Shown piece by piece: positions 10,353-60,485 of a DNA stretch of 64,000 nt. Under the pieces are notes generated by a model. It was not told the origin of the DNA and searched no databases. It saw only the letters and a list, made by a program, of their open reading frames with translations. The stretch is taken from sequence record PQ850617.1. One strand, written 5' to 3'. This stretch comes from Escherichia phage ManiMatter_Bas94. Position 1 is the first letter of the stretch, and the number at the start of each line of letters is the position of its first letter. The position numbers and the translations under genes were made by a program.

Positions 10353-12497
10353 ATGTCTAGAGAATTAATGCCCAAATCTGGGATAATGATGCCTCATGTG
10401 GTAGTTACTAGAGATGCCGCAGTTGTGGGTGTGTCTACAGTTGATGGCGTGGCAGGTGCTGTTAATTTAACAGATAAATATCTACAAAAGTCTGATGCTG
10501 AAGCAACATATCAAACGAAAGCAGAAGGGGCTACTAAGCAATATGTAACCGATGCTATTAACCCTATTATGACAAATGCTCTGTTTAAAGATGACCCTTT
10601 TGTCAATAATGATACACCTATCCGCTCTGGTGGTGGTAATGGTGTTGAATCAGTGGATATGATTAAAGTTACCCCCGAGAACTCTATCAAACTAGGGAGT
10701 TATGCTTCTTCTGTTCAGGGGGTTGAGATTCACTCTGCTGGTCGTGTTCAGGTTGTTGATCAGAATGATGGTGGGGTAGAAACTAAATACCCTATCTATT
10801 CTAAGCGTTTCCGTCCTGAGATTGAAGATTTACCTTTTGCTGCAATCGGTTCTTATGTTAAGGATTCTCAAGGTCGTACTGTTGGTGTAACCCGTACTGG
10901 TATTAACTCTGATATCAAACAACTCACACAGAAGGTGACTTTCACTCAACCAGTTACTGTTCCTGATGCGGTTGGTGACTATGATGCAGTTACTTTGAGA
11001 CAGCTTCGTAACAGTGGTGGCTCTGGCGGTCCTACCATGAGTGGTATCTCTAACTTTGGTATTGGTGATTTCCACTTACGTGATAGTCGAGCTTTCATCC
11101 CAGCTTTTGAAGTTCCCTCAGATGGTCAGCTTTTAAATCGTGCTGATTATCCTGACCTGTGGGCTTATGCTCAACTATTAACCCCTATTAGTGATTCTCT
11201 TTGGGTAGGAGATATTACCCAAAGAGGTAGATACTCCACAGGCGATGGCACCACCACTTTCCGTGTCCCTGACCGAAATGGTATTCAGCTTAACTCCCTT
11301 GCAGCTCTTTATGGACGAGGTGATGGGGGTGCTTCCGCAGCTAATGGTATGGTTTTTGACTCTGCCGCTCCTAACATCTACGGTGACATTGGTGGTGTTG
11401 TAGCCTATGGTCAGACTGGTGCTATTATGCGAGGTCAGGAAGAAACTGCACTAGCTCCACAACCAGTTACAGGAAACGGTGTATTAAGGGTAAGCTTGGA
11501 TGCTTCCAAATCAAGTCCGATATACGGTCGCAGTAACTCAGAAATCATGGGTCGTAACTTTGTAGGTGTTTGGACTATTCGTGCTCATGGTGGTTTTACT
11601 GCTGCTAACACATCTTGGTCAGTTATTAATAGTGATGCAAACCGTCCTGCTGGTGGAACTCGAGCAACTAGTGGTTCTGTTGTTGCTGAATATAAAATAG
11701 GTTCAGAAGTAGAAGCCTCTACTACGCTCCAAACTGATGCTTATATCGACGGAGCTTATTATGGGATTATCAATGTTTATAATAAAACCAAAGGAGTTAC
11801 CAAGCAATTAGCTTTTGATGATTCTGGAACCCTGAACTCTGATAGGTATGCTGCTCGGTTTGGGACAATGATGGCTTGGAGCCAAACAGGAAGTCGCAGA
11901 GGGACGTTTTCTACAGACAACCAAGGGATCGGTGCTAACTACTCTTTTAACTCTATACTGAGTGCTTCCCAAGCATCCCAAGGTGGATACAAAACTACTA
12001 CCCATGTAGGGATGATTCACAACGATGCTGGAACTTTTGCTGATTCTTGTTGGCACGTAGCTGGGGATGAAGACAACAAATATGGTTGTCGTTTAACTCT
12101 TCGACCAAACAGAAATGAGCTTTTCTATTACACTTGGCAGCCTGGCGCATCAGGAGTTTACACTCTTGCTATGAATCCTGTGTCAGATGAAAGGTTGAAA
12201 CACAACATTCAAGATCTCTCGCCTGATGAAGCAATTCGTGCGATTAAAGGTTTGGATTTCAAATCGTTTGTATATAACAACGACGAACAAGGAAGAACTC
12301 GTCGTGGTGTTATCGCACAGCAAGCAGAAAAGGTAGAACCTCTTTATGTTAAGACTCGTAGGTTCCATGACAACGACGGCGTAGAGCAAGAACAGAAAGA
12401 GCTGGACTCAGCTCCTATGCTCCTCGATACTATGCAAGTTGTTCAAGACCTGTTGAAACGTATTGAAGTTCTAGAAGCGAAGTTAGCAGAGAAGTGA
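10353..12497 (+). CDS. Tail fibre/spike with C-terminal intramolecular chaperone (peptidase S74-like) domain
   Basis: 714 aa; fibre motif DAVTLRQL; C-terminal ...SDERLKHNIQDL...coiled coil, resembling self-cleaving chaperone domains of fibres/endosialidases. Confidence 0.65.
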   Translation: MSRELMPKSGIMMPHVVVTRDAAVVGVSTVDGVAGAVNLTDKYLQKSDAEATYQTKAEGATKQYVTDAINPIMTNALFKDDPFVNNDTPIRSGGGNGVESVDMIKVTPENSIKLGSYASSVQGVEIHSAGRVQVVDQNDGGVETKYPIYSKRFRPEIEDLPFAAIGSYVKDSQGRTVGVTRTGINSDIKQLTQKVTFTQPVTVPDAVGDYDAVTLRQLRNSGGSGGPTMSGISNFGIGDFHLRDSRAFIPAFEVPSDGQLLNRADYPDLWAYAQLLTPISDSLWVGDITQRGRYSTGDGTTTFRVPDRNGIQLNSLAALYGRGDGGASAANGMVFDSAAPNIYGDIGGVVAYGQTGAIMRGQEETALAPQPVTGNGVLRVSLDASKSSPIYGRSNSEIMGRNFVGVWTIRAHGGFTAANTSWSVINSDANRPAGGTRATSGSVVAEYKIGSEVEASTTLQTDAYIDGAYYGIINVYNKTKGVTKQLAFDDSGTLNSDRYAARFGTMMAWSQTGSRRGTFSTDNQGIGANYSFNSILSASQASQGGYKTTTHVGMIHNDAGTFADSCWHVAGDEDNKYGCRLTLRPNRNELFYYTWQPGASGVYTLAMNPVSDERLKHNIQDLSPDEAIRAIKGLDFKSFVYNNDEQGRTRRGVIAQQAEKVEPLYVKTRRFHDNDGVEQEQKELDSAPMLLDTMQVVQDLLKRIEVLEAKLAEK

Positions 12498-56847: not shown

Positions 56848-57210
56848 CTATTGGTTTTTAATCAACTCAATAGACTTACGGATATAAAGAATATCTCGGA
56901 AGTTTCTGTAGTTGTTCATAAATTGATGCTTCTGGAACTCAGCTTCTTCCAGAGCTTTCTTTGCGTCTGCGTAGTTTTTACGGGCAAGACATACAACCCG
57001 CTCTGGTAACATGTTTGCACGATGGATTAGATACTTGTGAGCTTTCATATTGCTTTGCTCACGAGCAATCTTACCTTTAGCAACTTTGATACCATTTGCA
57101 ATCCAAGCAAGTTCTTGCTCAAGCTCATCGTTGGACATTCCACCGAGGTTTGATGCAACCTTGTTCAGAGTTTCAATATTAACGTTGCCCTTAATGGGAC
57201 GTGTATTCAT
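56848..57210 (-). CDS. Hypothetical protein
   Basis: 120-aa ORF. Confidence 0.4.
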   Translation of the reverse strand: MNTRPIKGNVNIETLNKVASNLGGMSNDELEQELAWIANGIKVAKGKIAREQSNMKAHKYLIHRANMLPERVVCLARKNYADAKKALEEAEFQKHQFMNNYRNFRDILYIRKSIELIKNQ

Positions 57211-57212
57211 AC

Positions 57213-57365
57213 TTACTCCTGTTGTTTACACTCGTCAATAACCCACTGATAAGTGGATTGCCCAGAAAAGAAACACTGAATAAATCCAGATGTTCTCTGC
57301 GTTACCAGTGCTAGTGCACATATCACTACCGCTGCTGCTAGCAGTTTCATATCTAATTTAGACAT
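57213..57365 (-). CDS. Small secreted Cys-containing protein (50 aa)
   Basis: Manual translation MSKLDMKLLAAAVVICALALV... signal-like N-terminus. Confidence 0.3.
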   Translation of the reverse strand: MSKLDMKLLAAAVVICALALVTQRTSGFIQCFFSGQSTYQWVIDECKQQE

Positions 57366-57475
57366 ATTTCCTCTCTTTGAATTTAAAAAAGGACTCTCCG
57401 AAAAGAGCCAAACTTTAAATCCAAAAAAAGATATTACCCAATATCTGTGGATAACCTGCTCTTAAAATATCTATC

Positions 57476-57596
57476 CGACGGATGTTTGAGGAACACTCCT
57501 CGCCCTAGCATCGGCCCCATACGGGAAATAAATTAAGATTAGGTTAGTTGAGTCAGAATAACTCACATAGCCTTCTCCGGAAGAAGGCTATAGATG
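57476..57596 (-). repeat. Intergenic cassette, copy A (related to 60371-60485)
   Basis: Shares blocks cggatgtt(t/c)gag, c(g/t)ccctagc, gaggaacac, ctcacatagcc(t/c)tct + hairpin + ggctata with copy B; both immediately 3' of a - strand gene stop. Confidence 0.5.
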
Positions 57597-57830
57597 TTAC
57601 TCGCCTTTCTTAGCACGATCTTTGGCAGTTTTGCCAGTGCGGATGCGGTGTGAAACGTTAACCAGAGTGCCACCATCAACTACGGTAACGCTCTTGTTTT
57701 TAGCCAGATCAAACACAGCCTTCTCTGTGCCACCCAAGCGAATTTGCTTAGGTTCACTGAAGGTTTGGGTTGATTTAGATTGGAACTGGAACGGTTGACG
57801 GATTGCATCAATTGCACTTACTTTAGACAT
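57597..57830 (-). CDS. Hypothetical protein
   Basis: 77-aa ORF, AAGGA RBS. Confidence 0.4.
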   Translation of the reverse strand: MSKVSAIDAIRQPFQFQSKSTQTFSEPKQIRLGGTEKAVFDLAKNKSVTVVDGGTLVNVSHRIRTGKTAKDRAKKGE

Positions 57831-57848
57831 AGGGGAAATTCCTTAAAA

Positions 57849-57880
57849 AATCATGGCTGCGTAGAGGGAATTCCCTACGC
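57849..57880 (-). terminator. Stem-loop terminator
   Basis: GCGTAGGGAATTCCCTCTACGC palindrome followed on - strand by ...GATTTTTTAAGG. Confidence 0.45.
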
Positions 57881-57902
57881 AAATTAGGCCGCCTAAAAAG
57901 AG

Positions 57903-57920
57903 GCGTCATAGTACTAAAAG
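57903..57920. repeat. 18-bp motif GCGTCATAGTACTAAAAG (copy 1 of 2)
   Basis: Identical 18-mer at 63104-63121; both between a - strand stop codon and a terminator hairpin. Confidence 0.5.
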
Positions 57921-58056
57921 GAGGAGAGAAGAGGGCTTATTTAGCTACCTTTTTCTGTCCGTTTACGAACCAGATAATTGTTCCATCAGGTTGTCGTTGA
58001 CCAAAGCCTTTCTGGTTAATCATATCGTCATAAGAATATGCTTTACGTCTCATCTG

Positions 58057-58302
58057 TCACTCCTGAACAACTGACATACGAATCATTTCTACCGGAGTGT
58101 CACCTTTCATAACACCCAGCACACCAGTCAGAAGATTAACTGTAGTAATCCAGTCTTTTTCTACAGAGATTTTGCTGGATACATTGGCAACACGCATATG
58201 ATACTGAGGTGATGCTGTTCCTCTCTGAACTACGAAAGGGTTTCCGGGAATAATTGTAGCCAGCGAAACTGTGTTATCTTTAATCTTTGGGATGATTTTC
58301 AT
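58057..58302 (-). CDS. Hypothetical protein
   Basis: 81-aa ORF. Confidence 0.35.
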   Translation of the reverse strand: MKIIPKIKDNTVSLATIIPGNPFVVQRGTASPQYHMRVANVSSKISVEKDWITTVNLLTGVLGVMKGDTPVEMIRMSVVQE

Positions 58303-58310
58303 CTTGATTC

Positions 58311-58622
58311 CTATTTAAGTTTAAGGCTAACATTAAGGTGCATACACGCCCTGTTCTGTACAGCGGCATAACTTCTACCGAGCATGTCTGCCATTCTCTG
58401 AATAGGCATGAACCCAGCATTACGAATAACAAACTGATCTTCTTCTTCCGTCCACTTGACACGTAGAGAAGCCCTTGATATACCAAACTTGGTACAGGCT
58501 GTGTTAACAGCATTCTCTGTAACATTCATAATCTGAGCAACTTCTTGAACCGAATACTCTTTGATTAGTCTCCGAAGATTTTCAATCTGCATCGGAGTCC
58601 ATATAGTTCTTCGTGCTTTCAT
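58311..58622 (-). CDS. Hypothetical protein (possible DNA-binding, two W/E-rich helical repeats)
   Basis: 103 aa; repeats WTPMQIENLRRL... / WTEEEDQFVIRN... Confidence 0.35.
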   Translation of the reverse strand: MKARRTIWTPMQIENLRRLIKEYSVQEVAQIMNVTENAVNTACTKFGISRASLRVKWTEEEDQFVIRNAGFMPIQRMADMLGRSYAAVQNRACMHLNVSLKLK

Positions 58623-58917
58623 ATACCCTCCAATTAAACATTTATATAAGACTTGCTTAGATAAAGATTCAATAAAATAGGGGGAGGGGACGAATCCTCC
58701 CTTATCCTATTAATTAGTATTGCATGTAAGATCTAACAATCGGTTTCCTTTGTAGGAATAAGCGTTATGCTCATCCAGCACTAAACTCCCGCCCCCTTAG
58801 TGGGCTGGGTTATTAAAGGGTAACGCCCTTATGGGCTAGTTACGTGAATGTTAGTTTGATAGGAGATCTGAAGTCCTATCTCAAAGGACTCTCGTAAGAA
58901 TCCTTCACGATAAGCTC

Positions 58918-59205
58918 TTAATATACTAATCCGTGTAAGAGAAACACTCTATTAGTTAACTCTGCTTTAGCTCTGTAATAAGCCTTAGAACCTAACAGGC
59001 GGCTCTTAACAAAGAACTTGATGTCATTGCTTACGTCTTGTATTAAACGCTCCTGTACAGCTTCTGAGGAGCTATTAATTGAATCAATTAACACCTTTGT
59101 AGATGTGTAATTCACATCACCACTCCTTACCGGTTGTAGTTGTAGAGCCACCACACCACTGTGCATCAGATAAGGTTTTAGTCTCCTCATCCATTGCTGC
59201 ACCAT
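58918..59205 (-). CDS. Hypothetical protein
   Basis: 95-aa ORF; 5' end overlaps previous gene, true start uncertain. Confidence 0.3.
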   Translation of the reverse strand: MVQQWMRRLKPYLMHSGVVALQLQPVRSGDVNYTSTKVLIDSINSSSEAVQERLIQDVSNDIKFFVKSRLLGSKAYYRAKAELTNRVFLLHGLVY

Positions 59206-59398
59206 TCATGCATGAGATACCATTGTAACGCATATCAATTTCGCCAGAAGGAACCTTCTCACCTTTATGCCAGCGAGATACACAAATACCTTCCACTGCT
59301 ACTGCACACCATCCATCAGGACGGCTCTGTACGCAGCCTGTAAGGGCCACACAGACAATGAAGATACAGATTAAGGATATTACACCACTCCAACTCAT
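59117..59398 (-). CDS. Small Cys-rich lipoprotein
   Basis: Start set to ATG 59398 (GGAGGTG RBS); signal MSWSGVISLICIFIVCVALTGC with lipobox LTGC; mature part about 70 aa with 5 Cys. Confidence 0.5.
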   Translation of the reverse strand: MSWSGVISLICIFIVCVALTGCVQSRPDGWCAVAVEGICVSRWHKGEKVPSGEIDMRYNGISCMNGAAMDEETKTLSDAQWCGGSTTTTGKEW

Positions 59399-59421
59399 AA
59401 CACACCTCCAAGAGCTTCTAG

Positions 59422-59500
59422 TGAGGATGACAGGATTTGAACCTGCATACTCCAATTACTTCTTTAACGACCGCTTAGAAGGCGGGGAAGATACATCCTC
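59422..59500 (-). tRNA. tRNA-like element, possibly atypical tRNA-Arg(UCU)
   Basis: Perfect 7-bp acceptor stem GAGGATG/CATCCTC, canonical T-arm GCAGG-TTCAAAT-CCTGT, hairpin CCGC-CUUCUAA-GCGG with anticodon-loop-like UCU; no canonical D-arm found, 23-nt extra segment. Confidence 0.45.
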
Positions 59501-59541
59501 ATTAAGAATTCTCGTTAAAGCTGGTTTAAATCACATCAACC

Positions 59542-59793
59542 TCAAGCACAAGCAGGGAGAGTGATGATTTTATACTTGCCATCAAATTCTCCAAACAAAC
59601 CTAAGAATGTAGGACTATAAGTACCAGTACAAACAAACTCATCAAACAGTTCGTTATAGCTAGGCTTAATCTTCCAAGCCCATACATAACCCATCTTGTC
59701 AATTGCAATGTAACGAGTGTTTAGAGGAACAGTCATCATCACACCATCAACTTCGACCACTTTAGTGATTGGTGCAGCTTGGAAGTTTTTCAT
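59542..59793 (-). CDS. Hypothetical protein
   Basis: 83-aa ORF. Confidence 0.4.
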   Translation of the reverse strand: MKNFQAAPITKVVEVDGVMMTVPLNTRYIAIDKMGYVWAWKIKPSYNELFDEFVCTGTYSPTFLGLFGEFDGKYKIITLPACA

Positions 59794-59845
59794 ACTTTAC
59801 CTTTAATTAAAACAACAAAGGCCACCCAATCGGGCAGCCTTTCTT

Positions 59846-60055
59846 TTATTGACTCACACCACGAATCAAATGATTCTGTAGCATTTCATCTTCTGCATTA
59901 TAAAGGAATGCGAACATCAATTCCTTAGCCACATCTCTTGAGCAGTTAAGACACTTAGAGATTTGAGCTAGTTGCATATTACGTTCGGTGTGCTCCACTA
60001 AGGCAATGCGAATGATCTCTCGCATACCTATTACATGGGCTGTTTTAACCGGCAT
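59846..60055 (-). CDS. Small helical protein (possible regulator)
   Basis: Start at internal ATG 60055 overlapping stop of a 46-aa upstream ORF; track ORF 59846..60097 trimmed. Confidence 0.3.
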   Translation of the reverse strand: MPVKTAHVIGMREIIRIALVEHTERNMQLAQISKCLNCSRDVAKELMFAFLYNAEDEMLQNHLIRGVSQ

Positions 60056-60370
60056 AGGTCCAATTACCTTGCTTGTCACGGATAGTGGACATTGCATGAA
60101 CCCAGAAGCCTTCCAGTTTCAGAGCACCATTAGTTACTGCATCCATACGTTCAGGGCGGTTCATACGTTTGGTTGATACTTTCATACCTATCTCTCTTTG
60201 TTAGTGAAGGCATTATTGCCAGTTGATATAGCAGATAGCCCTATTAAAAAGGACTACCGACTATCTAAACTGGTGAAGACTCCCTACCCCTAGGAAGTCT
60301 CCTGAATCCCAAACCAATATGTACCCCTACATATCGGAAAGTCTACCGAAAATTAACAGGTTTTAGTCTA

Positions 60371-60485
60371 ACACCGGATGTTCGAGCAAGCTCTCCCTAG
60401 CGGTGTGGCATATGCCTGATTTAATAAGTTAATGAGGAACACCCTCACATAGCCCTCTGATAAGCACAAGGGCTATAAGTCGGTG
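60371..60485 (-). repeat. Intergenic cassette, copy B (related to 57476-57596)
   Basis: Same ordered sequence blocks and hairpin ATAGCCCT...AGGGCTAT as copy A, immediately 3' of gene 60486-60782. Confidence 0.5.

What the first reader, a model, noticed from the sequence alone, without database searches (positions are those of the whole stretch)
59399..59510. Atypical tRNA-like element immediately upstream of an early lipoprotein gene
On the - strand a 79-nt sequence has a perfect 7-bp acceptor stem, a canonical T-arm (GG-TTCAAAT-CC) and a hairpin with a CUUCUAA loop, which is the anticodon loop of tRNA-Arg(UCU), an AGA/AGG reader. I could not fold a canonical D-arm, and about 23 extra nt sit between the anticodon-like hairpin and the T-arm. 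It may be a genuine phage tRNA-Arg that I misfolded, a D-arm-lacking tRNA, or a tRNA-like structure with a regulatory or processing role. It ends 24 nt before the lipoprotein start codon.
Basis: seen in the sequence. Interest (0 to 1): 0.5.

Follow-up and report, generated by a model that had tools for sequence, protein, structure and literature searches.

The report
Phage arginine tRNA with relocated D-arm
The 79-nt element is a real, strongly conserved phage gene for an arginine tRNA (anticodon UCU) whose D-arm is wired differently from the normal cloverleaf, and the same unusual form sits, mostly unannotated, in hundreds of other phage genomes.

Summary
Window 59500..59422 (- strand) has a 7-bp acceptor stem, a T-arm, a CUUCUAA anticodon hairpin, no D hairpin and 23 extra nt. 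ARAGORN finds nothing, but Rfam's tRNA model passes its threshold (33.4 against 29 bits).

The window is a phiEco32-like Kuravirus. Its relatives LAMP and phiEco32 carry a canonical tRNA-Arg(UCU) at this exact spot. The atypical form is not decay. I collected 119 distinct copies from phage genomes and metagenomes, and 253 INPHARED records hold it. It usually lies inside tRNA clusters that lack a canonical tRNA-Arg(UCU).

Covariation supports all three tRNA stems and a fourth 3-bp helix, cols 11-13 with 40-42 (357/357 cells paired, 12 helix variants). This helix encloses the anticodon arm. It is followed by an invariant D-loop-like AANNGGA, which includes the A20-like base that E. coli ArgRS needs. 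When the anticodon is left free, every alternative found is also an arginine anticodon (CCU, UCG, ACG).

Best reading: a working tRNA-Arg that reads AGA/AGG, which make up 25% of the phage's Arg codons, built on a three-way junction. Charging and decoding are inferred, not shown. I found no description of this architecture in nine literature searches. A regulatory role for the lipoprotein gene is not supported.

The parts
59494..59500 (-). Acceptor stem, 5' strand (GAGGAUG; family columns 1-7)
   Evidence: Pairs perfectly with 59423-59429. All 7 pairs show double (compensatory) changes across 37 homologues.
59491..59493 (-). U8 A9 and U ('22-like'), the junction strand (columns 8-10)
   Evidence: U8 and A9 are invariant in 119/119 members; column 10 is U in 112 and C in 7.
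59487..59490 (-). 5' strand of the extra helix (CUU, plus C14 in this copy; columns 11-14). Read here as the D-stem 3' strand (nt 23-25) followed by position 26.
   Evidence: Columns 11-42, 12-41 and 13-40 are paired in 357/357 cells, with 12 helix variants. The window has CUU/AAG where most members have CUC/GAG.
59470..59486 (-). Anticodon arm: stem CCCGC/GCGGU (top pair is C.U in this copy), loop CUUCUAA, anticodon UCU at 59479-59477
   Evidence: All 5 stem pairs covary. The loop is CUUCUA(A/C) in all 119 members, though the search patterns partly fixed it. When the anticodon was left free, only Arg anticodons were found.
59462..59469 (-). Linker CGUUAAAG between the anticodon stem and the 3' strand of the extra helix (columns 32-39)
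   Evidence: Members have CGUUAA followed by 2 variable nt. The linker is 3-5 nt in divergent relatives L084, L166, L182 and L187.
59459..59461 (-). 3' strand of the extra helix (AAG; columns 40-42). Read here as the D-stem 5' strand (nt 10-12).
   Evidence: Same covariation as the 5' strand. Mutual information for 12-41 is 1.28 bits, comparable with the acceptor pairs.
59447..59458 (-). D-loop-like single strand UAAUUGGAGUAU (columns 43-54). Proposed assignment: A14, A15, N16, N17, G18, G19, A20, and a final U as U48.
   Evidence: Invariant except for columns 46-47, also in the scan that did not constrain this segment. The spacing matches the D-loop of the canonical phiEco32 tRNA-Arg, AAUUGGA. 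A20 is the main E. coli ArgRS determinant (PMC9976931).
59430..59446 (-). T-arm GCAGG-UUCAAAU-CCUGU (columns 55-71)
   Evidence: 3 of 5 pairs show double changes. The G-C pair next to the loop is invariant, as G53-C61 is in tRNAs.
59422..59429 (-). Acceptor stem 3' strand CAUCCUC plus discriminator A (59422). The next bases are CUA, not CCA.
   Evidence: The discriminator is G in 76, A in 40 and U in 3 of 119 members. CCA is genomically encoded in most members (column-81 C in 87/119, the upper bound), but not in the window.
59117..59398 (-). Downstream lipoprotein gene (homologue of phiEco32 gp106). It is a neighbour, not part of the RNA.
   Evidence: ORF, with ATG at 59398, an upstream GGAGG and lipobox LTGC. 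LAMP and phiEco32 annotate 'putative lipoprotein' directly after their canonical tRNA-Arg.
59542..59793 (-). Upstream 83-aa ORF. The tRNA gene lies in the 144-nt gap between this ORF and the lipoprotein gene, on the same strand.
   Evidence: LAMP gp108 is the same length and sits upstream of the canonical tRNA.

Best explanation
The element is the phage's single tRNA gene: a tRNA-Arg(UCU) in a conserved, non-cloverleaf architecture that is essentially confined to phages.

Shown here. It is a covarying RNA with a 7-bp acceptor stem, a 5-bp T stem with a canonical T-loop, and a 5-bp anticodon stem with a CUUCUAA loop. It also has a 3-bp helix whose two strands flank the anticodon arm. The result is a three-way junction rather than a four-way one.

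Inferred. The strand before the anticodon arm (CUC/CUU then A/C) corresponds to D-stem nt 23-25 plus nt 26. The strand after it (GAG/AAG then U, AANNGGA) corresponds to D-stem nt 10-13 plus the D-loop A14-A20. In other words, the block 'D-stem 5' strand + D-loop' has moved from before the anticodon arm to inside the variable region. The extra helix can still stack on the anticodon stem (3 bp + 1 + 5 bp, against 4 + 1 + 5 in a normal tRNA). G18 and G19 can still reach the T-loop, and A20 can still be presented to ArgRS, so an L-shape is kept.

Inferred mechanism. The RNA is co-transcribed with the early genes on the - strand and cut out by host RNase P and 3' exonucleases. In the window copy it is given CCA by the host CCA-adding enzyme. 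It is charged by host ArgRS through A20, C35, U36 and A73, and it decodes AGA (and AGG). These codons are rare in E. coli but make up about a quarter of the phage's arginine codons. Why the unusual wiring is kept is unknown. Escape from a host or phage nuclease that recognises normal tRNA bodies is a possibility I did not test.
For: (1) Synteny. LAMP and phiEco32 have a canonical tRNA-Arg(UCU) at this exact position, upstream of the lipoprotein gene. The window, Bas93, 1-6af, 1-6bf and FH3 have the atypical form. TH42 has a second atypical lineage with a different acceptor stem.

(2) Structure. In 37 sequences, 99.1% of cells are paired, 16/20 pairs show double changes, and 0/500 shuffles reach the observed values. 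In 119 sequences the extra helix is paired in 357/357 cells with 12 variants; slid controls give at most 142/357. Close relatives of the window copy differ from it by compensatory changes.

(3) tRNA hallmarks kept: U8, A9, AANNGGA, the T-loop UUCRANY, an invariant G-C pair next to the T-loop, G/A discriminator in 116/119, and an encoded CCA in most members (at most 87/119).

(4) Arginine identity. With the anticodon unconstrained, the loops found were UCU (195), CCU (2), UCG (1) and ACG (1). All are Arg anticodons with C35 and U/G36. One contig (L138) has UCU, CCU and ACG paralogues. The determinants match those of E. coli ArgRS: A20, C35, U/G36, A/G73 (PMC9976931).

(5) Context. Of 194 loci holding a member, 150 have at least 1 canonical tRNA nearby and 85 have at least 5. 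They hold 29 canonical Arg(ACG) genes, but only 4 loci have a real canonical Arg(UCU). Whole genomes give the same picture: phi92-like PD211 has 15 tRNAs and no Arg; Felix-O1-like GE_vB_BS has 22-23 and no Arg; TH42 has none.

(6) Demand. AGA is 9.5 and AGG 4.2 per 1000 codons in the window, 25% of Arg codons. Kuraviruses use AGA about 5-fold more than E. coli K12 and carry one tRNA-Arg(TCT) (PMC9965538).

(7) Block homology. Re-ordering columns into canonical order raises the score against an HMM of 26 canonical Arg tRNAs to 31.7 bits. The native order scores 19.9 and scrambled blocks score 26.6 +/- 0.12.

(8) Phage-specific. The core motif hit only 2 MAG contigs in 185,579 species genomes. 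It hit 253 phage records and at least 120 metagenome contigs.
Against: There are no expression, processing, aminoacylation or decoding data; function in translation is inferred only. ARAGORN does not accept the element. Nearest-neighbour energies do not favour the 3-bp helix: the structure with the helix averages -20.3 kcal/mol against -21.5 without it, and the MFE folds contain it in only 4/119 members. RNAalifold on 37 sequences preferred a local hairpin instead. The window copy has a C.U mismatch at the top of the anticodon stem and no encoded CCA. The three-dimensional claim (preserved L-shape) rests on sequence analogy alone. The ARAGORN re-permutation test was barely specific: 119/119 re-ordered sequences were called tRNA-Arg, but so were 102/119 with a scrambled block. 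Members were collected with sequence patterns, so part of the invariance of CGUUAA and GGAGUAUG comes from the search itself, and the sequences are related rather than independent. E. coli EF-Tu and ribosomes are not known to use non-cloverleaf tRNAs.
Confidence: 0.65

Rival explanations
1. It is a tRNA-like decoy or anti-defence RNA. It mimics the anticodon arm of tRNA-Arg(UCU) to absorb or evade a tRNA-targeting nuclease, but it is not itself used in translation.
For: The body is atypical while the anticodon loop is strictly conserved. The element is confined to phages. From my own knowledge, phage tRNAs can counter anticodon nucleases. In contig L138 atypical copies coexist with two canonical Arg(UCU) genes, so the atypical form is not always a simple replacement.
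Against: A decoy has no need for a G/A discriminator, an encoded CCA, an A20-like base or a full acceptor/T minihelix. All alternative anticodons are arginine anticodons obeying ArgRS rules. It replaces the canonical tRNA-Arg(UCU) at the same locus in Kuraviruses, and it is the only Arg(UCU)-type gene in clusters of 15-23 tRNAs. A nuclease-resistant but functional tRNA would fit both this reading and the best explanation.
Confidence: 0.15
2. It is a decayed tRNA-Arg pseudogene, left over from the canonical gene seen in LAMP and phiEco32.
For: ARAGORN rejects it. It has no D hairpin, a 20-nt insertion relative to the Rfam model, a C.U mismatch in the anticodon stem and no CCA in the window copy.
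Against: The same 79-nt layout is conserved in 119 distinct sequences from unrelated phage groups and environments. All four helices show compensatory changes, and the single strands are invariant. Relative to LAMP, the acceptor stem is rewritten at most of its seven pairs, and all seven still pair. Close relatives of the window copy differ from it by compensatory pairs. A truly truncated copy (L166:6452-6530) scores far lower against the family model, 48 bits against 85-107.
Confidence: 0.03
3. It is a cis-acting leader or processing signal for the early lipoprotein mRNA, for example an RNase P or RNase E entry site that sets the 5' end of the lipoprotein message.
For: It lies 23 nt upstream of the lipoprotein start codon, on the same strand, with no promoter-like site between them. 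Excising any tRNA embedded in an operon does cut the mRNA.
Against: The element occurs in phi92-like, Felix-O1-like, Vequintavirinae, Klebsiella and jumbo phages, and in environmental phage contigs, within tRNA arrays and without this lipoprotein gene. Its flanks are not conserved. A canonical tRNA occupies the same place in relatives, so any processing effect would be a by-product of being a tRNA.
Confidence: 0.05
4. The region is protein-coding: either the + strand ORF 59358..59564, or the TTG-started extension of the lipoprotein ORF at 59455.
For: Mechanical ORFs cover the region. Some phage records annotate 'hypothetical protein' or 'HNH endonuclease' over the homologous site.
Against: Substitutions come as base-pair-preserving doubles in four helices, not with codon periodicity. 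The element keeps a fixed length of 79 nt with unrelated flanks. The lipoprotein has its own SD and ATG, and its signal peptide starts at 59398.
Confidence: 0.01

Closest known systems
Canonical phage tRNA-Arg(UCU) of phiEco32, LAMP and other Kuraviruses (same locus)
   Same: Same genomic position and strand, directly upstream of the gp106-type lipoprotein gene. Same anticodon loop (CUUCUAA in LAMP). The T-arm is nearly identical (CAGGUUCAAAUCCUG). A D-loop-type AAUUGGA motif is present and the discriminator is a purine. It presumably does the same job of reading AGA/AGG (PMC9965538).
   Different: The canonical gene has the D hairpin between nt 9 and 26 and a 5-nt variable loop, is 73-77 nt long including CCA, and is found by ARAGORN. 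The window element has the D-stem strands on either side of the anticodon arm, with the D-loop-like segment just before the T stem. Its acceptor stem is different, and ARAGORN misses it.
D-armless mitochondrial tRNAs of animals, e.g. tRNA-Ser(AGY/UCU) (PMC4013460, PMC9427863; titles and abstracts listed)
   Same: These are functional tRNAs without a D hairpin, and some carry a UCU anticodon. They are precedents that translation systems can use non-cloverleaf tRNAs that still approximate an L-shape.
   Different: The mitochondrial forms are reduced. The D-arm is replaced by a short connector and the D-loop/T-loop contacts are lost, and they work with co-evolved mitochondrial factors. The phage element is not reduced (79 nt). 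It keeps a D-stem-like helix and a G18G19A20-like motif in a new position, and it would have to work with the ordinary bacterial machinery.
Circularly permuted tRNA genes of Cyanidioschyzon merolae (PMC3978253, listed)
   Same: The order of tRNA segments along the gene differs from the order in the cloverleaf.
   Different: There the whole 3' half precedes the 5' half. Processing through a circular intermediate yields a mature tRNA with the normal chain order. Here the acceptor ends are at the termini of the gene, only an internal block is displaced, and no processing route that would restore the normal order is known in bacteria.
Allo-tRNAs and other 8/4 and 9/3 tRNAs of bacteria and phages (PMC5389517)
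   Same: Structurally non-canonical tRNAs found by metagenome mining, some of them in phage tRNA clusters.
   Different: Those change the lengths of the acceptor and T stems but keep a D-arm and the four-way junction. Here the 7/5 acceptor/T geometry is canonical and the D region is rewired.
Class II tRNAs (Leu, Ser, Tyr) with a long variable arm
   Same: More than 20 nt lie between the anticodon stem and the T stem.
   Different: Class II tRNAs have a self-contained variable hairpin and also a normal D-arm. Here the hairpin model for the extra nt fails (columns 41-46 paired in only 57/119, no compensatory change). The extra nt instead pair with nt 11-13.

Membership tests
tRNA (Rfam RF00005; canonical cloverleaf) | Score at or above the curated gathering threshold of the tRNA covariance model | tested here: met
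   33.4 bits against a gathering score of 29; E=0.0037 for the 64-kb window; full-length model match 1-71.
tRNA (Rfam RF00005; canonical cloverleaf) | 7-bp acceptor stem, discriminator base and 3' CCA (encoded or added) | tested here: met
   GAGGAUG/CAUCCUC with A73. All 7 pairs covary in the family. CCA is not encoded in the window (CUA), but most members encode it (at most 87/119).
tRNA (Rfam RF00005; canonical cloverleaf) | T-arm: 5-bp stem, 7-nt loop UUCRANY, G53-C61 pair | tested here: met
   GCAGG-UUCAAAU-CCUGU. The loop-closing G-C is invariant in 37/37. The loop columns are conserved.
tRNA (Rfam RF00005; canonical cloverleaf) | Anticodon arm: 5-bp stem, 7-nt loop with U33 and a purine at 37 | tested here: met
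   The loop is CUUCUAA. The window has 4 bp plus a C.U at the top; the family stem is 98.9% paired and all 5 pairs covary.
tRNA (Rfam RF00005; canonical cloverleaf) | D-arm hairpin between nt 9 and nt 26 (four-way junction) | tested here: not met
   Only 5 nt (UCUUC) lie between U8-A9 and the anticodon stem. Rfam aligns 4 nt against 15 model positions. ARAGORN finds no tRNA. The D-stem-like helix encloses the anticodon arm instead.
tRNA (Rfam RF00005; canonical cloverleaf) | Aminoacylation and decoding on the ribosome | not testable with these tools
   Indirect evidence only: the ArgRS determinants are conserved, and the element replaces the canonical gene.
Arginine tRNA recognised by bacterial ArgRS | A20 in the D-loop, C35, U36 or G36, and A/G73 (PMC9976931) | tested here: inconclusive
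   C35 and U36 are invariant. Alternative anticodons are CCU, UCG and ACG only. The discriminator is A/G in 116/119. An invariant A directly follows the invariant GG, as A20 follows G18G19. Whether this A occupies the A20 pocket of ArgRS cannot be tested by sequence.
The atypical phage tRNA-Arg family defined here (model R1) | 79-nt layout: acceptor, UA, N, 3-bp helix strand, N, anticodon arm, CGUUAANN, 3-bp helix strand, UAANNGGAGUAU, T-arm, acceptor | tested here: met
   The window copy has every element in register with 118 other distinct sequences and no gaps. Members score 85-107 bits with R1, against at most 35 bits for canonical tRNAs. The window sequence was part of the training alignment.
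D-armless mitochondrial-type tRNA | D-arm replaced by a short unpaired connector, with no D-loop/T-loop interaction motif | tested here: not met
   A covarying 3-bp D-stem-like helix and an invariant AANNGGA motif are present.
Circularly permuted tRNA gene (C. merolae type) | The 3' half is encoded upstream of the 5' half, so the acceptor-stem strands are adjacent in the middle of the gene | tested here: not met
   The acceptor strands are at the two ends of the element, 59500-59494 and 59429-59423.
Class II tRNA (long variable arm) | A self-paired variable-arm hairpin together with a normal D-arm | tested here: not met
   In the hairpin model (columns 38-41 with 46-49), the 41-46 pair holds in 57/119 members and there is no compensatory change. 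There is no D hairpin.

The most novel reading that the evidence does not exclude
Bacterial translation is served, in hundreds of virulent phages including phi92-like and Felix-O1-like phages, by an arginine tRNA with a previously undescribed architecture. In it, the D-stem 5' strand and the D-loop have been transposed to the 3' side of the anticodon arm, giving a three-way junction that still forms an L-shape and is still charged by host ArgRS. Standard tRNA finders miss it, so phage tRNA repertoires have been systematically under-counted for Arg(UCU). The same topology may extend to other isoacceptors: ACG-type relatives with a different core, and one UAU-anticodon example in L142.
Probability: 0.45. 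Interest if true: 0.85.

Novelty: new variant of a known kind. Interest (0 to 1): 0.75.

Why it matters
If the RNA is charged and used, there are four consequences.

1. The four-way cloverleaf would not be obligatory for a tRNA working with ordinary bacterial ArgRS, EF-Tu, RNase P and ribosomes. It would be a natural 'rewired' tRNA that keeps the tertiary contacts while changing chain connectivity.

2. It would correct an annotation blind spot. At least 253 deposited phage genomes carry the gene, mostly unannotated, labelled 'tRNA-OTHER', or overlaid with hypothetical proteins. Analyses of phage tRNA content against codon usage therefore miss the tRNA for the codons most under-served by the host.

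3. Canonical and atypical genes have been exchanged at one locus in Kuraviruses. That gives a clean natural experiment for asking what the rewiring buys, for example resistance to a tRNA-directed nuclease.

4. The scaffold could be useful for engineering orthogonal tRNAs.

Tried and rejected
- ARAGORN on the window found 0 tRNAs. This reflects the tool's cloverleaf assumption and is not evidence of absence.
- Single-sequence MFE folding gave a fold that breaks the anticodon hairpin. I rejected it because the anticodon stem covaries.
- Variable-arm hairpin CCGA-GUAA-UUGG with a GNRA loop. RNAalifold favoured it on 37 sequences. I rejected it on 119 sequences: columns 41-46 pair in only 57/119, C40.U47 occurs in 11, and column 41 covaries with column 12 instead.
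- Pairing of CUC with the second GAG (in GGAGUA). I rejected it because that GAG is invariant while columns 12 and 13 vary together with 41 and 40.
- The ARAGORN re-permutation test called 119/119 re-ordered sequences tRNA-Arg, but also 102/119 with a scrambled block. It is too permissive to count as evidence, so I replaced it with an HMM score test.
- The second HMM, built from all canonical tRNAs, failed because the MAFFT output was empty. It was not used.
- The alignment A4 from the cmsearch run mixes family members with canonical tRNAs. I did not use it for pair counts.
- The promoter and terminator scan found nothing between the upstream ORF and the element.
- Literature: nine full-text searches, including the motif sequence itself, and checks of two papers on non-canonical tRNAs, found no description of this architecture. 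Subscription-only papers were not searched.
- The snoRNA-type Rfam matches near 59556-59602 are far below threshold and were disregarded.
Full report
**1. What is in the window**

On the - strand, 59500..59422 reads GAGGAUG UAUCUUC CCCGC CUUCUAA GCGGU CGUUAAAGAAGUAAUUGGAGUAU GCAGG UUCAAAU CCUGU CAUCCUC A, followed by CUA.
- a perfect 7-bp acceptor stem;
- a canonical T-arm;
- a hairpin with the tRNA-Arg(UCU) loop CUUCUAA;
- no D hairpin;
- 23 nt between the anticodon hairpin and the T stem.

The lipoprotein gene (MSWSGVISLICIFIVCVALTGC..., with a lipobox) starts at 59398, 23 nt after the discriminator.

ARAGORN finds no tRNA anywhere in the 64-kb window. Rfam's tRNA model is the only family above its gathering score (33.4 against 29 bits, E=0.0037). 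Its alignment deletes the D-arm and inserts 20 nt in the variable region.

**2. Whose genome, and what relatives have at this spot**

The window is a phiEco32-like podophage (Kuravirus, Gordonclarkvirinae). The best matches are LAMP and AidaStucki_Bas93.

In LAMP and phiEco32, the position directly upstream of the gp106-type lipoprotein gene holds an annotated tRNA-Arg(UCU) of 73-74 nt. ARAGORN confirms it at 76-77 nt including the 3' CCA. Aligned with these, the window shares the anticodon loop and the T-arm. It has a different but still fully paired acceptor stem, no D hairpin, and 18 extra nt.

Bas93, 1-6af, 1-6bf and FH3 share the window's version at 96-97% identity, unannotated. TH42 carries a second atypical lineage with yet another acceptor stem (GGGGGUU/AACCCCC) and has no ARAGORN tRNA in its whole genome. 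So one locus in one phage group holds either the canonical or the atypical gene.

**3. The atypical form is a widespread family**

Copies about 80% identical lie inside the tRNA arrays of unrelated phages: phi92 (between tRNA-Leu and tRNA-Ser), a Vequintavirinae phage (SSBI34) and a Felix-O1-like phage (LPML1). All are unannotated, and their flanks are unrelated.

- In INPHARED, 253 records hold at least 80% of the phi92 copy. They include phi92-like, Ounavirinae, Vequintavirinae, Klebsiella and jumbo phages. The feature underneath is usually 'none', sometimes 'tRNA-OTHER', 'hypothetical protein' or 'HNH endonuclease'.
- Pattern scans brought in dozens of IMG/VR contigs.
- The core motif occurs in only 2 MAG contigs among one genome for each of 185,579 bacterial and archaeal species.

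The family therefore belongs essentially to phages. I extracted 119 distinct 82-nt sequences, all gapless and in register.

**4. Secondary structure**

On 37 sequences, the three classical stems plus one extra helix give:
- 99.1% paired cells;
- 16 of 20 pairs with changes on both sides;
- 0/500 shuffles reaching any observed measure;
- slid controls at 35-48% paired.

The extra helix joins columns 11-13 (just before the anticodon stem) with columns 40-42 (just before UAANNGG). On 119 sequences:
- 11-42 is invariant C-G;
- 12-41 is paired in 119/119 (UA 82, AU 19, GC 16, CG 2);
- 13-40 is paired in 119/119 (CG 96, GC 12, UA 10, UG 1).

That makes 12 helix variants in all. Shuffles reach at most 82 and 100 paired, and slid registers reach at most 142/357 cells. 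The window copy has CUU/AAG, plus a possible C-G fourth pair, where most members have CUC/GAG.

The alternative was a local hairpin with a GUAA loop, which RNAalifold preferred on the smaller set. It fails on the larger set: columns 41-46 pair in only 57/119, with no compensatory change. Nearest-neighbour energies do not favour the 3-bp helix, so the evidence for it is comparative and not thermodynamic.

Close relatives of the window copy (L100, L109, L112, L153) differ from it mainly by compensatory pairs in the acceptor stem and the extra helix. That is the signature of selection on structure.

**5. How I read the anatomy (inference)**

In a normal tRNA the D-stem 3' strand (22-25) runs into nt 26 and then the anticodon stem. 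The D-stem 5' strand (10-13) runs into the D-loop: A14, R15, Y16, Y17, G18, G19 and, in arginine tRNAs, A20.

The family has exactly these two arrangements:
- ...CUC-A-[anticodon stem];
- GAG-U-A-A-N-N-G-G-A...

The second segment sits after the anticodon arm instead of before the first. The D-loop of the canonical phiEco32 tRNA-Arg is AAUUGGA, and the family has AAUUGGA at the corresponding place.

I therefore propose that the block 'D-stem 5' strand + D-loop' has been transposed into the variable region. This converts the four-way junction into a three-way junction while keeping the following:
- stacking of the D-stem on the anticodon stem (3 + 1 + 5 layers);
- U8 and A9;
- an A14/A15-like pair of adenines;
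- G18G19 for the T-loop contact;
- A20;
- a U immediately before the T stem (U48-like).

Three observations are consistent with this.
- Re-ordering the columns into canonical order gives a 76-nt sequence. It scores 31.7 bits against an HMM of 26 canonical Arg tRNAs. The native order scores 19.9, and composition-matched scrambles of the block score 26.6 +/- 0.12.
- The linker between the anticodon stem and the returning strand can be as short as 3-5 nt in divergent relatives. That is expected if nt 43 and nt 10 are close in space.
- The T-loop and the G-C pair that closes it are invariant.

The ARAGORN version of the re-ordering test was not discriminating. No 3D modelling was possible.

**6. 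Is it a working arginine tRNA? (inference, several independent lines)**

(a) It replaces the canonical tRNA-Arg(UCU) at the same locus (section 2).

(b) It usually lies in tRNA arrays. Of 194 member loci, 150 have at least 1 canonical tRNA and 85 have at least 5. Together they hold about 1,300 canonical tRNAs of all common phage isoacceptors, including 29 Arg(ACG). ARAGORN calls a canonical Arg(UCU) in five of them, but one call is a misparse of the atypical element itself, leaving four.

(c) Whole genomes agree: phi92-like PD211 has 15 tRNAs and no Arg; Felix-O1-like GE_vB_BS has 22-23 tRNAs and no Arg.

(d) With the anticodon left free, the family shows UCU 195 times and otherwise only CCU (2), UCG (1) and ACG (1). 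Only two of the nine single-base neighbours of UCU are arginine anticodons, yet all four exceptions are Arg, with C35 and U/G36 kept. One contig (L138) carries UCU, CCU and ACG paralogues.

(e) The determinants of E. coli ArgRS are A20 (the main one), C35, U/G36 and A/G73 (PMC9976931). The family keeps an invariant A after GG, C35, U36, and G/A73 in 116/119. It encodes CCA in most members (column-81 C in 87/119 gives the upper bound).

(f) Demand exists. AGA and AGG are 9.5 and 4.2 per 1000 codons in the window's long ORFs, 25% of arginine codons. A Kuravirus study reports an AGA share of 20.2% in the phage against 3.6% in E. coli K12, and one tRNA-Arg(TCT) per genome (PMC9965538).

None of this shows charging or decoding directly.

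**7. Rivals**

- Decay is excluded by the covariation.
- A role specific to the lipoprotein mRNA is not supported, given the many unrelated contexts.
- Protein coding is excluded by the substitution pattern.
- A non-translating decoy for a tRNA-directed nuclease remains possible. It does not explain the ArgRS-type constraints, the acceptor end or the replacement pattern. A functional tRNA whose odd body also evades a nuclease would reconcile the two ideas, but I have no evidence for any nuclease.

**8. Comparison with known things**

The element works like, and replaces, a canonical tRNA-Arg(UCU). It fails the defining D-hairpin feature of the cloverleaf. It is also not any of the following:
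- a mitochondrial-type D-armless tRNA, because it keeps a D-stem-like helix and a D-loop-like motif;
- a circularly permuted gene of the red-alga type, because its acceptor ends are terminal;
- a class II tRNA, because the variable hairpin is rejected;
- an 8/4 or 9/3 allo-tRNA, because its acceptor/T geometry is 7/5.

A 2020 review of natural non-canonical tRNAs has no phage or D-armless arginine case. The allo-tRNA paper describes different structures. Nine full-text searches, including the motif sequence itself, found nothing. That library lacks most subscription-journal papers, so prior description cannot be excluded.

**9. Verdict**

| Claim | Confidence |
|---|---|
| The element is a member of a large, conserved, phage-specific family with a rewired D region | high |
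| The secondary structure | high |
| Function as a tRNA-Arg | moderate to high |
| The 3D 'transposed block' reading | moderate |

Novelty: a new variant of a known kind. Interest: 0.75.

Noticed in passing
L138 (metagenome contig Ga0255783_10000721): 4102-4183, 8598-8679 and 11201-11282, all - strand; canonical genes at 1915-1989 and 11118-11194: One 37.5-kb contig carries three paralogues of the atypical architecture with anticodons CCU, UCU and ACG. It also has two canonical tRNA-Arg(UCU) genes, so the atypical and canonical forms can coexist.
   Followed up: partly
L142:3368-3451 (+): This is an 84-nt element with the same topology: acceptor, UA, a 5-bp helix ACGGU/ACCGU enclosing the anticodon arm, AAUGG, T-arm and ACCA. 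Its core sequence is different and its anticodon is UAU (Ile AUA-type). It hints that the rewired layout is not restricted to arginine.
   Followed up: partly
L182:3849-3928 (-), L187:2516-2596 (-), L084:2689-2766 (+), L166:7097-7176 (+): These are divergent relatives (42-71 bits with model R1). Three have anticodon ACG and the L166 copy has UCU. Their linkers after the anticodon stem are shorter (3-5 nt) and their linkers before the T stem are longer. They look like a broader superfamily of rewired Arg tRNAs.
   Followed up: partly
L094 (Kuravirus TH42, - strand), about 30-50 nt downstream of its atypical tRNA: The sequence GAGGGTTCGAATCCTTCCGTCCCG looks like a T-arm plus acceptor 3' strand with no matching 5' half. 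It may be a remnant of a replaced tRNA gene.
   Followed up: no
window 59842..59817 (- strand): A strong terminator-like hairpin (11-bp stem, 6 G-C pairs, U-rich tail) lies just upstream of the 83-aa ORF 59793..59542. No sigma-70-like promoter was found between it and the tRNA.
   Followed up: no
window 59117..59455 (- strand): The mechanical ORF listing starts the lipoprotein ORF at a TTG inside the tRNA element. The real start is most likely ATG 59398, preceded by GGAGG, with the lipobox LTGC in the signal peptide.
   Followed up: yes
Bas93 (PQ850593.1) 58946-60391 and Bas92 (PQ850610.1) 57181-58590, compared with window 58900-59850: The closest relatives have about 500 extra bp, annotated as an HNH endonuclease, within the stretch matching the window around the tRNA locus. 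SSBI34 also has an HNH gene directly downstream of its copy (L004:2614-2973). This suggests a link between homing endonucleases and exchange of the tRNA cassette.
   Followed up: no
L092 38.2-43.2 kb and L093 26.9-31.9 kb (Salmonella phage GE_vB_BS, MG969407.1, 'UNVERIFIED'): The record contains two nearly identical copies of a tRNA array of about 22 genes, with small differences (e.g. a tRNA with a 2-nt 'anticodon' in one copy against Ala or Lys in the other). This is probably an assembly artefact. It does not affect the conclusion that no canonical Arg tRNA is present.
   Followed up: no
L003:3133-3208 (phi92): ARAGORN reports the annotated tRNA-Lys(UUU) of phi92 as 'tRNA-??? anticodon (tt)', which means an irregular anticodon loop. 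In the phi92-like phage PD211 (L089), ARAGORN reports a normal tRNA-Lys(ttt) in the tRNA array.
   Followed up: no
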